The notes under the pieces were generated by a model. The model did not search any database. It was not told the DNA's origin and saw only the letters and a list, made by a program, of their open reading frames with translations. The position numbers were made by a program, and so were the translations under genes. Shown here in pieces: positions 5,620-9,630 of a stretch of DNA of 64,000 nucleotides. Position 1 is the first letter of the stretch, and the number at the start of each line of letters is the position of its first letter. Location: the NCBI RefSeq assembly GCF_009914755.1, contig NC_060930.1; one strand, written 5' to 3'. This DNA is from the human T2T-CHM13v2.0 reference genome, Homo sapiens.

Positions 5620-5790
5620 GCCCTTTATCAGTTCTCATTCCCATTCAGTCTTTGTACAATATTTGATGCTATCAATCACTCTCTTTCCAATTATGTTTCC
5701 CTCTTAGCCTCCAAGATTCCTCCTTCTGCTGTGCAGCAAGTGATGGTTTTGTTTGTTGTGGTCACCTGTGTGCTGATTTCATCTCTCCTT
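5620..5790 (+). mobile_element. L2 fragment
   Basis: atatttgatgctatcaatcactctctttcc...ccctcttagcctcc resembles L2 body. Confidence 0.4.
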
Positions 5791-5809
5791 CTGAAATGGT
5801 AAATTTCTT

Positions 5810-7667
5810 TTTTTTTTTTTTAACTATACTTTAACTTCTAGGGTACATGTACACAACGTGCAGGTTTGTTACATATGTATACATGTGCTATGTTGGTGTG
5901 CTACACCCATTAACTCGTCATTTACATTAGGTATATATCCTAACGCTATCCCTCCCTGCTGCCCCCACCCCACGACATGCCCCAGTGTGTGATGTTCCCC
6001 TTCCTGTGTCCAAGTGTTCTCATTGTTCAGTTCCCACCTATGAGTGAGAACATGCGGTGTTTGTTTTTTTGTCCCTGTGACAGTTTGCTGAGAATGATGG
6101 TTTCCAGCTTCATCCATGTCCCTACAAAGGACATGAACCCATCTTTTTTATGGCTGCATAGTATTCCATGGTGTATATGTGCCACATTTTCTTAATCCAG
6201 TCTATCACTGTTGGACATGTGGGTTGGTTCCAAGTCTTTGCTATTCTGAATAGTGTCGCAATAAACATACGTGTGCATGTGCCTTTATAGCAGCATGATT
6301 TATAATCCTTTGGGTATATACCCAGTAATGGGATGGCTGGGTCAAATGGTATTTCTAGTTTGAGATCCTTGAGGAATTGCCACACTGTCTTCCACAATGG
6401 TTGAAGCAGTTTACAGTCCCACCAACAGTGTAAAAGTGTTCCTATTTCTCCACATCCTCTCCAGCACCTGTTGTTTCCTGACTTTTTAATGATCTCCATT
6501 CTAACTGGTGTGAGATGGTAACTCATTGTGGTTTTGATTTGCATTTCTCTGATGGCCAGTGATGATGAGCATTTTTTCATGTGTCTTTTGGCTGCATAAA
6601 TGTCTTCTTTTGAGAAGTGTCTGTTCATATCCTTCACCCACTTGTTGATGGGGTTGTTTGTTTTTTTCTTGTAAATTTGTTTGAGTTCTTTGTAGATTCT
6701 GGATATTAGCCCTTTGTCAGATGAGTAGATTGCAAAAATTTTCTCCCATTCTGTAGGTTGCCTGTTCACTCTGATGATAGTTTCTTTTGCTGTGCAGAAA
6801 CTCTTTAGTTTAATTAGATCCCATTTGTTAATTTTGGCTTTCGTTGCCATTGCTTTTGGTGTTTCAGACATGAAGTCCTTGCCCATGCCTATGTCCTGAA
6901 TGGTATTGCCTAGGTTTTCTTCTAGGGTTTTTATGGTTTTAGGTCTAACATTTAAGTCTTTAATCCATCTTGAATTAATTTTTGTATAAAGTATAAGGAA
7001 GGGATCCAGTTTCAGCTTTCTCCATATGGCTAGCCAGTTTTCCCAGCACCATTTATTAAATAGGGAATCCTTTCCCCATTTCTTGTTCTTGTCAGATTTG
7101 TCAAAGATCAGATGGTTGTAGATATGTGGTATTATTTCTCAGGGCTGTGTTCTGTTCCATTGGTCTGTATCTCTGTTTTGGTACCAATACCATGCTGTTT
7201 TGGTTACTGCAGCCTTGTAGTATAGTTTGAAGTCAGGTAGCGTGATGCCTCCAGCTTTGTTCTTTTGGCTTAGGATTGTCCTGGCAATGCGGGCTCTTTT
7301 TTGGTTCCATATGAACTTTAAAGTAGCTTCTTCCAATTCTGTGAAGAAAGTCTTTGGTAGCTTGATGGGGATGGCATTGAATCTATAAATTACATTGGGC
7401 AGTATGGCCATTTTCACGATATTGATTCTTCCTATCCATGAGCATGGAATGTTTTTCCATTTGTTTGTGTCCTCTTTTATTTAGTTGAGCAGTGGTTTGT
7501 AGTTCTCCTTGAAGAGGTCCTTCTCATCCTTTGTCAGTTGGATTCCTAGGTATTTTATTCTCTTTGAAGCAATTGTGAATGGGAGTTCACTCATGATTTG
7601 TCTGTTCTTGGTGTATAAGAATGTTTGTGATTTTTGCACATTGATTTTGTATCCTGAGACTTTGCTG
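5810..7667 (-). mobile_element. 5'-truncated L1PA (L1PA4/5-like), left arm of palindrome
   Basis: Poly(T) at 5808-5821, L1 3' UTR, ORF2 C-terminal ORFs 6122-6886 and 7139-7417; TSD copy tctgaaatggtaaatttctt at 5790-5809. Confidence 0.97.
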
Positions 7668-7721
7668 CACGAAACAATATAAACAGCACAAGTCCTCCTT
7701 TAAGAAACTTACCATTTCATA

Positions 7722-9630
7722 CCCCATCATCTCAGCCCAAAATCTCCTTAAACTGATAAGCAACTTCAGCAAAGTCTCAGGATACAAAGTCAATGTGCAA
7801 AAATCACAAGCATTCTTATACACCAAGAACAGACAAATCATGAGTGAACTCCCATTCACAATTGCTTCAAAGAGAATAAAATACCTAAGAATCCAACTGA
7901 CAAAGGATGTGAAGGACCTCTTCAAGAACTACAAACCACTGCTCAACTAAATAAAAGAGGACACAAACAAATGGAAAAACATTCCATGCTCATGGATAGG
8001 AAGAATCAATATCGTGAAAATGGCCATACTGCCCAATGTAATTTATAGATTCAATGCCATCCCCATCAAGCTACCAATGACCTTCTTCACAGAATTGGAA
8101 GAAGCTACTTTAAAGTTCATATGGAACCAAAAAAGAGCCCGCATTGCCAGGACAATCCTAAGCCAAAAGAACAAAGCTGGAGGCATCATGCTACCTGACT
8201 TCAAACTATACTACAAGGCTGCAGTAACCAAAACAGCATGGTATTGGTACCAAAACAGAGATATAGACCAATGGAGCAGAACACAGCCCTGAGAAATAAT
8301 ACCACATATCTACAACCATCTGATCTTTGACAAATATGACAAGAACAAGCAATGGGGAAAGGATTCCCTATTTAATAAATGGTGCTGGGAAAACTGGCTA
8401 GCCATATGGAGAAAGCTGAAACTGGATCCCTTCCTTACACTTTATACAAAAATTAATTCAAGATGGATTAAAGACTTAAATGTTAGACCTAAAACCATAA
8501 AAACCCTAGAAGAAAACCTAGGCAATACCATTCAGGACATAGGCATGGGCAAGGACTTCATGTCTAAAACACCAAAGGCAATGGCAACGAAAGCCAAAAT
8601 TAACAAATGGGATCTAATTAAACTAAAGAATTTCTGCACAGCAAAAGAAACTACCATCAGAGTGAACAGGCAACCTACAGAATGGGAGAAAATTTTTGCA
8701 ATCTACTCATCTGACAAAGGGCTAATATCCAGAATCTACAAAGAACTCAAACAAATTTACAAGAAAAAAACAAACAACCCCATCAACAAGTGGGTGAAGG
8801 ATATGAACAGACACTTCTCAAAAGAAGACATTTATGCAGCCAAAAGACACATGAAAAAATGCTCATCATCACTGGCCATCAGAGAAATGCAAATCAAAAC
8901 CACAATGAGATACCATCTCACACCAGTTAGAATGGCAAACATTAAAAAGTCAGGAAACAACAGGTGCTGGAGAGGATGTGGAGAAATAGGAACACTTTTA
9001 CACTGTTGGTGGGACTGTAAACTGCTTCAACCATTGTGGAAGACAGTGTGGCGATTCCTCAAGGATCTCAAACTAGAAATACCATTTGACCCAGCCATCC
9101 CATTACTGGGTATATACCCAAAGGATTATAAATCATGCTGCTATAAAGACACATGCACACGTATGTTTATTGCAACACTATTCACAATAGCAAAGACTTG
9201 GAACCAACCCAAATGTCCAACAATGATAGACTGGATTAAGAAAATGTGGCACATATACACCATGGAATACTATGCAACCATAAAAAAAGATGAGTTCATG
9301 TCCTTTGTAGGGACATGGATGAAGCTGGAAACCATCATTCTCAGCAAACTGTCACAGGGACAAAAAACAAACACCGCATGTTCTCACTCATAGGTGGGAA
9401 CTGAGCAATGAGAACACTTGGACAGAGGAAGGGGAACATCACACACTGGGGCCTGTCGTGGGGTGGGGGTATTGGGGAGGGATAGCATTAGGAGATATAC
9501 CTAATGTAAATGACGAGTTAATGGGTGCAGCACACCAACATGGCACGTGTATACATATGTAACAAACCTGCACGTTGTGCACATGTACCCTAGAACTTAA
9601 AGTATAATAAAAAATAAATAAATAAAAATA
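7722..9630 (+). mobile_element. 5'-truncated L1PA (L1PA4/5-like), right arm of palindrome
   Basis: ORF2 C-terminal ORFs 8014-8292 and 8545-9393, 3' UTR, A-rich tail 9605-9630. Confidence 0.97.

What the first reader, a model, noticed from the sequence alone, without database searches (positions are those of the whole stretch)
5790..9630. 3.8-kb LINE-1 palindrome whose arms share private mutations
Seen: two L1PA 3' halves lie head-to-head with poly(A) tails pointing outward, about 1.85 kb each, separated by only 99 bp. They cover the same part of L1 and are truncated within ~45 bp of the same position. They share changes that differ from the L1 consensus as I recall it: ILPNV, ELEEAT, IARTIL, YKAAV, KINKW, KLLQPL, LKLEIP, the same premature stop after RTQP, and an ~11-bp deletion at tcatgattt|gtctgttc. 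Established: twin priming gives non-overlapping segments and one tail, and long near-perfect palindromes are unstable. Inference: this is either a fold-back duplication of one L1 or two neighbouring L1s that were fused by deletion and then homogenised.
Basis: partly seen in the sequence, partly recalled or inferred. Interest (0 to 1): 0.85.

Follow-up and report, generated by a model that had tools for sequence, protein, structure and literature searches.

The report
LINE-1 palindrome from one rearranged insertion
Two inverted copies of the same 1.9-kb LINE-1 fragment in an intron of HEY2-AS1 come from a single old insertion that was later duplicated in reverse by a DNA-repair or replication accident; it is a tidy example of a known kind of rearrangement, with no sign of a function.

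Summary
The palindrome is real. L1 lies on the minus strand at 5808-7667 and on the plus strand at 7721-9631. The repeat arms are 97.2% alike over 1865 nt and 99 nt apart.

It is not two insertions. A 17-nt target-site duplication sits beside the left arm's poly-T (5791-5807). It sits again, inverted, beside the right arm's 5' end (7704-7720), followed by 27 nt of non-L1 flank. A third, 310-bp copy of this 5' junction (4678-4987) lies inside an older L1 between 10-bp duplications.

So one canonical insertion was rearranged at the DNA level. The central junction carries a 9-nt filler.

Of 45 shared departures from 28 other copies, 25 are subfamily-level. 20 are carried by at most 1 of 28 copies, and they include two stop codons. 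The 12-bp deletion recurs in unrelated copies.

Arm divergence jumps from 1.8% to 8.9% about 180 nt from the tails. Either an old palindrome had its inner part homogenised, or a second short L1 anchored a later duplication. Ape assemblies would decide.

It is a new member of a known kind, of modest interest.

The parts
5791..5807 (-). 3' target-site duplication of the L1 insertion (CTGAAATGGTAAATTTC on the + strand), directly beside the left arm's poly-T
   Evidence: the 11-mer core occurs 3 times in the window (4830, 5792, and inverted at 7709).
5808..7667 (-). Left arm: L1 3' part on the minus strand. The tail is T14 at 5808-5821 and the body is 5822-7667. It ends 46 nt short of the right arm's 5' end.
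7668..7676 (.). 9-nt filler (CACGAAACA) at the central junction. No template of 11 nt or more was found in the window.
7677..7703 (+). 27 nt of non-L1 flank of the original 5' junction, here inverted. It is identical to 4846-4872.
   Evidence: 43 of 43 identical between 4830-4872 and 7719-7677..
7704..7720 (+). 5' target-site duplication, inverted relative to 5791-5807, directly beside the right arm's L1 5' end
   Evidence: (L1 homology starts at 7721)
7721..9631 (+). Right arm: L1 3' part on the plus strand, with an A-rich tail of TAAA type to about 9631. No target-site duplication follows it.
9453..9631 (+). Outer stretch where the arms differ by 8.9%, against 1.8% further in. The partner stretch is 5808-5978. 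The change-point lies somewhere between 9401 and 9453.
   Evidence: 0 of 2000 permutations reach the likelihood ratio
4678..4987 (-). Third partial copy. It holds the L1 5' end (151 nt, 4678-4828, with the 12-bp deletion), the target-site duplication (4829-4845), 27 nt of flank (4846-4872) and 115 nt of further flank (4873-4987) that exists nowhere else in the genome.
4668..4677 (.). 10-bp duplication ACAATACCAA on the left of the 310-bp insert. The second copy is at 4988-4997.
   Evidence: in 8 of 11 other copies of the old L1 the two sides are contiguous and share these roughly 10 nt once.
4988..4997 (.). Second copy of the 10-bp duplication, on the right of the 310-bp insert

Best explanation
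Shown:
- One 5'-truncated L1 inserted on the minus strand by ordinary target-primed reverse transcription. It made a 17-nt target-site duplication at a TTCTT/AAAG-like site.
- The 5' junction of that insertion (L1 5' end, duplication, flank) now exists twice more. One copy is inverted, as the inner end of the right arm. The other is a 310-bp piece 2.9 kb to the left.
- The right arm is therefore an inverted DNA copy of the left element plus 44 nt of its flank. It is joined to the left arm through a 9-nt filler. This is an end-joining or template-switch junction, not a microhomology-primed snap-back.
- The original 5' end of the left element and the flank beyond it were lost at this place.

Inferred:
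- The event was a fold-back-type repair of a break, or a stalled fork, just outside the L1 5' junction.
- The shared stops and the mostly amino-acid-changing shared substitutions arose by neutral decay at this locus.
- The inner 1.65-1.69 kb of the arms last had a common ancestor at about one third of the element's age. The outer roughly 180-230 nt and the 310-bp copy are about as old as the insertion.

Favoured reading: the rearrangement (palindrome and 310-bp copy) happened soon after insertion. One long arm-to-arm conversion or re-copying from the centre outward later homogenised the inner part. I put the core claim, one insertion with a DNA-level inverted duplication, at about 0.85. I put this favoured timing at about 0.45.
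For: One insertion, copied as DNA:
- The 17-mer is at 5791-5807 next to the poly-T, inverted at 7704-7720 next to the L1 5' end, and at 4829-4845.
- The flank 4830-4872 is 43 of 43 identical to 7719-7677, and this flank is otherwise unique in the genome.
- 4678-4872 matches 7871-7677 at 94.4% over 195 nt.
- The arms are sisters with 100% SH-aLRT over the inner part. The stem is 0.019 and the tips are 0.009 and 0.010. The median tip of the other copies is 0.022.
- No other copy above 94% was found, with 40 of 17277 candidates scored.

Neutral decay at this locus:
- The 20 shared rare substitutions in ORF2 are 13 amino-acid-changing, 2 stops and 5 silent.

Two ages in the arms:
- There are 30 differences in 1685 nt before position 9453 and 14 in 157 after it. 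0 of 2000 permutations reach this, and there is no second change-point.
- The outer part has 0 shared rare changes, 5 right-only and 11 left-only. The inner part has 20, 13 and 15.
- The third copy differs from the right arm by 11 of 195.

Not an artefact of sequencing: the arms differ by 2.8% and have different tails.

From the literature:
- Fold-back inverted duplications with a single-copy spacer are described (PMC3907307, abstract).
- So are inverted duplications and foldbacks next to L1 integrations (10.1101/2024.12.14.628481, passages).
- Multi-kilobase arm-to-arm conversion tracts are reported for a Y-chromosome palindrome (PMC3723533, title and abstract start in the listing).
Against: - The right arm stops exactly in its A-rich tail and has no target-site duplication. 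For a random DNA breakpoint that is a coincidence. It needs annealing of the copied A-run to an A/T-rich flank.
- The two tails differ in kind: T14 against a TAAA-type tail. The TAAA type is also seen in unrelated copies L003, L012 and L004.
- The central junction has a filler and no inverted microhomology. The published fold-back cases report short inverted sequences there.
- The inner differences are evenly spread. Conversion would therefore have happened once, not repeatedly.
- The third copy has 8 changes of its own in 151 nt against 2 in the right arm, five of them within 31 nt around the deletion. This fits a clock poorly.
- All timing rests on one genome. No orthologous locus could be examined.
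Confidence: 0.6

Rival explanations
1. A late palindrome anchored on a second L1. A short, independently inserted L1 3' fragment of the same subfamily already lay inverted a little to the right. At about one third of the element's age a break next to the 5' junction was repaired by fold-back or strand-invasion copying of the left element and 44 nt of flank. The new strand re-annealed in the second L1. The right arm's outer 180-230 nt, its tail and its flank then belong to that second insertion. The 310-bp copy would be a separate, older event.
For: - It explains without coincidence why the right arm ends in its own, different tail with no matching target-site duplication.
- It explains why divergence jumps at 9401-9453.
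- It explains why in the outer part the right arm is nearer to unrelated copies (L027, 96%) than to the left arm (92%).
- It needs only one non-homologous junction, the 9-nt filler.
- Inverted L1 3' fragments close to another L1 do occur: 1 of the 28 reference loci (L019) has one within 1.5 kb.
Against: - Both outer parts carry the same minority alleles at all 4 subfamily-level positions there (9418, 9447, 9457, 9593, each in 8-9 of 28 copies). They still pair weakly in the outer tree, at 78% SH-aLRT.
- It needs three separate rare events within 5 kb: the second L1, the 310-bp copy and the palindrome.
- No target-site duplication of the supposed second L1 can be shown.
Confidence: 0.3
2. Two independent full-length-arm L1 insertions lie head to head and were later homogenised by gene conversion.
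For: The outer parts and tails look like independent copies of one subfamily.
Against: - The right arm's 5' end abuts an inverted copy of the left element's target-site duplication plus 27 nt of unique flank. Conversion between L1s cannot transfer this.
- The near-identical truncation points, 46 nt apart, would be a coincidence.
Confidence: 0.03
3. The palindrome was made during retrotransposition. Candidates are a twin-priming variant, two poly(A)-primed cDNAs at one target, or trans-mobilisation of an already dead source element.
For: - There are two outward tails.
- L1 bridges with two poly(A) tails, and L1-associated foldbacks, are reported in tumours and cell models (10.1101/2024.08.27.596794 and 10.1101/2024.12.14.628481, passages).
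Against: - The arms overlap over 1.86 kb, whereas twin priming gives adjoining segments.
- A completed canonical 5' junction, with the duplication and 159 nt of flank, existed and was copied twice.
- The shared stops and mostly amino-acid-changing shared substitutions would need a dead source, and no such copy is in this genome.
- Uniform origin from one RNA does not explain the jump in divergence.
Confidence: 0.05
4. The structure is an assembly or read artefact, such as a fold-back chimera.
For: Palindromic chimeras are a known long-read artefact (recalled, not checked here).
Against: - The arms differ at 2.8% of positions.
- They have different tails, a 3-bp indel and an asymmetric 99-nt centre with unique flank.
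- An artefactual fold-back would be identical in both arms.
Confidence: 0.02

Closest known systems
Twin-priming 5' inversion of L1 (Ostertag and Kazazian 2001; recalled, not read here; described in passages of 10.1101/2024.08.27.596794)
   Same: An L1 whose 5' part is inverted relative to its 3' part, with the junction in the middle of the element.
   Different: Twin priming gives two adjoining, non-overlapping (or barely overlapping) segments, one tail, and one pair of target-site duplications around the whole. Locus L051 shows that pattern. Here the arms overlap by 1.86 kb, there are two tails, and the duplication pair is split between the arms in opposite orientation.
Fold-back inverted duplications with a single-copy spacer (Hermetz et al. 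2014, PMC3907307; abstract read)
   Same: An inverted duplication around a short stretch present once, consistent with a break next to the duplicated segment.
   Different: Those are chromosome-scale, end in terminal deletions or translocations, and show short inverted sequences at the spacer boundary. This one is 1.9 kb, interstitial, closed on the far side, and has a 9-nt filler instead of microhomology.
Arm-to-arm gene conversion in sex-chromosome palindromes (PMC3723533, PMC8600007; titles and abstract starts in the listing)
   Same: Inverted arms whose similarity is higher than their age predicts, with conversion tracts of kilobases.
   Different: Those arms are tens to hundreds of kb, more than 99.9% alike, and convert repeatedly. 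Here the arms are 1.9 kb, 98% alike in the inner part, and the evidence fits a single homogenising event. Conversion is inferred, not shown.
Local inverted duplications and foldbacks at L1 integration sites (10.1101/2024.12.14.628481; passages read)
   Same: Inverted copies arising from remodelled break ends next to an L1.
   Different: In those cases the genomic DNA beside a fresh insertion is inverted or duplicated during integration. Here the finished insertion, with its completed 5' junction, was the template.
Replication-based template switching such as DUP-TRP/INV-DUP (Carvalho et al. 2011; recalled, not read; the 'dup-trp-dup' pattern is mentioned)
   Same: A stretch present three times (7767-7871, 7563-7667, 4678-4782), one copy inverted. 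Fillers at junctions and short templated insertions from a few kb away.
   Different: There is no evidence that the three copies arose in one event. The scale is hundreds of bases to 2 kb rather than tens of kb or more.

Membership tests
LINE-1 (ORF2/3' end) | Encodes the ORF2 protein sequence | tested here: met
   360 residues align to ORF2p residues 906-1265 of 8uw3_A, E = 8.8e-231. Pfam gave 0 families for the same stretch. The subfamily name (L1PA-x) was not tested. No consensus library was on hand.
Canonical target-primed L1 insertion | Target-site duplication at both junctions, a 3' poly(A), and an endonuclease-like site | tested here: met
   The 17-mer is at 5791-5807 beside T14 and at the L1 5' end (4829-4845, and inverted at 7704-7720), with 16 of 17 identical. 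The site reads TTCTT/AAAG. The TTTT/AA preference it is compared with is recalled.
Twin-priming inversion | Inverted and direct segments are adjoining parts of L1, with one tail | tested here: not met
   The arms cover the same 1.86 kb and there are two tails.
Fold-back inverted duplication | Inverted arms around a single-copy spacer | tested here: met
   The 99-nt centre is present once between the arms. 90 nt of it continue the right arm's sequence: 46 nt of L1 plus 44 nt of flank.
Fold-back inverted duplication | Short inverted microhomology at the spacer/arm boundary | tested here: not met
   There is a 9-nt filler at 7668-7676, and no template of 11 nt or more in the window.
Gene-converting palindrome | Arm similarity higher than expected from the age of the duplication, with tract boundaries | tested here: inconclusive
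   There is a sharp change-point, 1.8% against 8.9%, and no shared rare changes in the outer part. A second L1 as anchor predicts the same pattern.
Two independent retrotranspositions | Each element has its own pair of target-site duplications | tested here: not met
   The right arm has the left element's duplication and flank at its 5' end, and none after its tail.

The most novel reading that the evidence does not exclude
The locus is a germline fossil of one complex rearrangement that struck a fresh L1 insertion. It would have made an inverted 1.96-kb copy and a 310-bp templated insertion with a 10-bp duplication in a single event. A small autosomal palindrome was then kept partly homogeneous by arm-to-arm conversion from the centre outward. 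Because it sits in an intron of HEY2-AS1 (hub annotation), its transcript would also fold into a hairpin of about 1.86 kb that is 97% paired. That would be a possible substrate for RNA editing or dsRNA sensing.
Probability: 0.15. Interest if true: 0.5.

Novelty: new member of a known kind. Interest (0 to 1): 0.33.

Why it matters
The locus shows how to tell a DNA-level inverted duplication of a retrotransposon from two insertions. The split target-site duplication and the copied unique flank are decisive, where shared 'private' mutations alone are not: more than half of them were subfamily-level, and the deletion is recurrent.

The locus carries its own clock (stem, tips, outer part, third copy). 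It makes clear predictions for ape genomes, so it could serve as a small natural test of how long a 2-kb palindrome with a 99-nt spacer survives and whether its arms convert.

It has no visible bearing on a gene other than lying in a lncRNA intron.

Tried and rejected
1. Empty site from paralogues. The flank at 4829-4987, the left flank at 5530-5797 and the right flank at 9633-10100 are each unique in this genome. The pre-insertion site therefore could not be rebuilt from other copies.

2. Template for the 9-nt filler. No match of 11 nt or more was found in the window. The 9- and 10-mers found are at chance level.

3. A source element carrying the arms' rare changes. None was found. The best other copies are 94% identical, but only 40 of 17277 candidates were scored.

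4. The 12-bp deletion as a lineage marker. Rejected. The loci that share it (L033, L034, L044/L052) are only 90-93% identical to the arm overall.

5. Position 7827 as private. Rejected after adding 23 copies.

6. Pfam on the open stretch gave no family. The PDB sequence search identified it instead.

7. NAHR inversion between two full L1s. Considered by reasoning and rejected. It would not make the inner parts share rare changes, and it would need two equal truncation points.

8. The 310-bp piece as a retrocopy. It has no poly(A) on either strand. Only one of the two possible nick sites looks endonuclease-like (from the sequence). Its mechanism is left open.

10. Phrase searches for 'L1 palindrome', 'palindromic L1', 'L1 inverted repeat', 'inverted L1 pair', 'inverted LINE-1' and 'L1 inverted duplication' found 8 papers, of which 7 were listed. 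None describes such a structure, judged from titles and abstract starts only.

11. L1 subfamily name and absolute ages were not tested. Ages in the report rest on recalled substitution rates.
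Full report
**Observation**

The inverted repeat is real.
- The repeat finder reports four collinear inverted blocks between 5799-7667 and 7767-9632, 92-99% complementary, with 99 nt between the innermost ends.
- BLAST joins them into one match, 5804-7667 against 9626-7767, 97.2% over 1865 nt.
- A global alignment shows the differences one by one.
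- Compared with another L1 copy, the right arm's L1 homology starts at 7721 and the left arm's ends at 7667. The right arm therefore reaches 46 nt further 5', and only 7668-7720 is not L1.
- The open stretch 8293-9391 matches human ORF2p residues 906-1265 of a 1275-residue chain, E = 8.8e-231. Pfam gave nothing.
- The tails point outward: T14 at 5808-5821, and an A-rich TAAA-type tail ending near 9631.

**One insertion, not two**

- The 17-mer CTGAAATGGTAA[A/G]TTTC occurs three times. It is at 5791-5807, touching the left arm's poly-T. It is inverted at 7704-7720, touching the right arm's L1 5' end. It is also at 4829-4845.
- A self-comparison shows that 4678-4872 is the reverse complement of 7677-7871, 94.4% over 195 nt.
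- That piece holds 151 nt of L1 5' end, the 17-mer and 27 nt of non-L1 flank.
- The flank part is 43 of 43 identical between the two places. The full 159-nt flank (4829-4987) occurs nowhere else in the genome.
- So the L1 has a normal pair of target-site duplications. Its 3' junction is on the left arm. Its 5' junction is on the right arm, in the opposite orientation.
- Two retrotranspositions, or gene conversion between two L1s, cannot put the first element's unique flank at the second element's 5' end.
- The right arm is therefore a DNA copy of the left element and its flank.
- It is joined to the left arm at 7667/7677 through nine bases (7668-7676). I found no template for them in the window.
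- After the right arm's tail there is no target-site duplication, and the right flank is unique.

**The third copy**

- Positions 4678-4987 (310 bp) interrupt the 3' end of a much older L1 on the plus strand.
- In 8 of 11 other copies of that old family, the sequences left and right of the insert are contiguous. The 10 nt ACAATACCAA, here at 4668-4677 and again at 4988-4997, occur once.
- The other 3 loci gave no adjacent second match.
- The insert thus has its own 10-bp duplication. It has no poly(A) on either strand. How it got there is open.
- It contains 115 nt of flank (4873-4987) that must once have followed the L1 5' junction and is now missing next to the palindrome.
- It shares the 12-bp deletion and 7752A with the arms. 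It has 8 changes of its own in 151 nt of L1, against 2 in the right arm and 1 in the left. Five of the 8 lie within 31 nt around the deletion.

**Are the shared changes private?**

I aligned both arms with 28 other L1 copies, the best hits in this genome. I only counted bases per column.
- At 45 positions both arms agree against the majority. At 25 of these the arm allele is carried by 2 or more of the 28 copies. At 20 it is carried by at most 1.
- Seven copies (L008, L003, L016, L017, L006, L027, L023) share 10-17 of the 45, so these mark a subfamily.
- I added 23 further copies. Of the 26 positions then re-examined, 15 are carried by at most 1 of 51 copies and 6 by 2 of 51. Position 7827 proved common. 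Both stop codons are carried by 0 of 51.
- The added copies came from a search with the deletion region, so they are not an unbiased sample. I left out two of them (L037, L052) as duplicates of loci already in the set.
- The same 12-bp deletion is in L033, L034 and L044/L052. These are only 90-93% identical to the arm overall. Other copies have 4- or 8-bp deletions at the same short-repeat stretch.
- The deletion is therefore recurrent and not proof of kinship.
- Of the 20 rare shared substitutions in ORF2, 13 change the amino acid, 2 are stops and 5 are silent. That is what decay without selection gives.
- No source-like copy was found, with 40 of 17277 candidates scored.
- I infer that these changes arose at this locus before the arms' last common ancestor.

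**Two ages within the arms**

- In 7767-9401 there are 20 rare shared changes, 13 right-only and 15 left-only. In 9402-9609 there are 0, 5 and 11.
- A change-point test puts the break at 9453. There are 30 differences in 1685 nt before it and 14 in 157 after it. 0 of 2000 permutations reach this likelihood ratio, and there is no second change-point in the inner part (859 of 1000 permutations reach its ratio).
- Reference copies evolve only about 1.2-1.3 times faster in the outer part: singletons run at 1.48 against 1.05-1.26 per 100 nt.
- In the inner tree the arms are sisters (100% SH-aLRT). The stem is 0.019 and the tips 0.009 and 0.010. The median tip of the other copies is 0.022, and the tips in the arms' own clade are 0.025-0.030.
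- Stem plus tip therefore equals the age of an ordinary copy, and the arms coalesce at about one third of it.
- In the outer tree the arms pair only weakly (78%). By identity the right arm is closer to L027 (96%) than to the left arm (92%).
- Both outer parts nevertheless carry the same minority allele at all four subfamily-level positions there.

**Mechanism**

Shown:
- A canonical insertion.
- A DNA-level inverted copy that includes its flank.
- A filler junction at the centre.
- Loss of the original 5' end and further flank.
- A separate 310-bp copy of the junction.

Inferred:
- A break or stalled fork just outside the 5' junction. The 3' end then copied the element backwards. This could be a fold-back, or a switch to the opposite template.
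- The single-copy centre is what fold-back models predict (PMC3907307, abstract). The filler instead of inverted microhomology is not.
- The orientation of the centre does not say which arm is the original, because recombination between arms can flip it. This point is established for large palindromes and is recalled here.

Two readings fit the two ages.

(a) Early rearrangement, later homogenisation.
- The rearrangement was early. This would also account for the old 310-bp copy, which differs from the right arm by 11 of 195.
- One long conversion or re-copying from the centre outward later homogenised 1.65-1.69 kb.
- Multi-kilobase tracts are reported for a Y palindrome (PMC3723533, listing).
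- Its weak point is that the inverted copy would have ended exactly in the poly(A). That requires the copied A-run to have annealed to an A/T-rich flank. This would also explain the TAAA-type right tail.

(b) Late palindrome anchored on a second L1.
- A second short L1 3' fragment of the same subfamily already lay inverted to the right, and it served as the landing site for the copied strand at the later date.
- Its weak points are the need for three rare events in 5 kb and for the second L1 to be of the same sub-type.

I favour (a) slightly, 0.45 against 0.30. The core claim I put at about 0.85.

**Rejected readings**

- Twin priming does not fit. The arms overlap by 1.86 kb and there are two tails. 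A true twin-priming pattern was seen at locus L051.
- A palindrome made during integration does not fit. A finished 5' junction with 159 nt of flank was the template.
- An artefact does not fit. The arms differ at 2.8% of positions, in a 3-bp indel and in their tails.

**Comparison with what is known, and novelty**

- The closest descriptions are listed under Closest known systems, with what is the same and what differs for each.
- Six phrase searches for an L1 palindrome of this kind found no description, judged from titles and abstract starts only. The library lacks most subscription journals.
- The structure is a small, interstitial, old member of the fold-back or template-switch family. 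It happens to involve an L1 and keeps a readable history.
- I rate it as a new member of a known kind, of modest interest.

**Limits**

- Everything rests on one genome. No primate orthologue, population data or reads could be examined.
- Subfamily names and absolute ages are not tested.
- The excess of changes in the 310-bp copy and the uneven spread of the rare shared changes remain unexplained. 14 of the 20 lie in 7767-8366 and none in 8667-8966.

Noticed in passing
window 1381-4677 and 4988-5213: An old L1 on the plus strand. It is 64-68% identical to the young L1 copies and 72-79% identical to other copies of its own family. It is split by the 310-bp insert, and its 3' end runs to about 5213-5240.
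   Followed up: partly
window 749-1055, 5244-5521, 12791-13088: Three copies of a roughly 280-300-bp repeat, 82-85% alike, one inverted. By eye they look like Alu elements; that name is recalled, not tested. The one at 5244-5521 lies between the 310-bp insert and the left arm.
   Followed up: no
window 7800-7845; loci L033, L034, L036, L044, L059, L060, L008, L037: A short-repeat stretch of ORF2 (ACAGA units) is an indel hotspot. Deletions of 12, 8 and 4 bp recur in unrelated L1 copies.
   Followed up: partly
window 4700-4740: The third copy has five substitutions within 31 nt around the deletion junction and 8 private changes in 151 nt of L1, but none in its 43-nt flank. This might reflect error-prone synthesis when it was made. 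It is unexplained.
   Followed up: partly
L051 (G000:C2:225101939-225105031): An L1 with a classic twin-priming pattern. The query's first 720 nt are inverted and positions 705-1706 are direct, overlapping by about 15 nt.
   Followed up: no
L044/L052 (G000:C8:65350798-65354019): An L1 with a tandem partial duplication of about 170 nt of the same ORF2 stretch.
   Followed up: no
L019 (G000:C9:20949220-20954089): An L1 with a 257-nt inverted L1 3' fragment about 1 kb beyond its tail. This shows that inverted L1 neighbours do occur.
   Followed up: no
window 8350 / 7081: The arms differ at a position where the 28 other copies are split 14 to 14. It is the only arm difference at a clearly subfamily-level, non-CpG site.
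   Followed up: no
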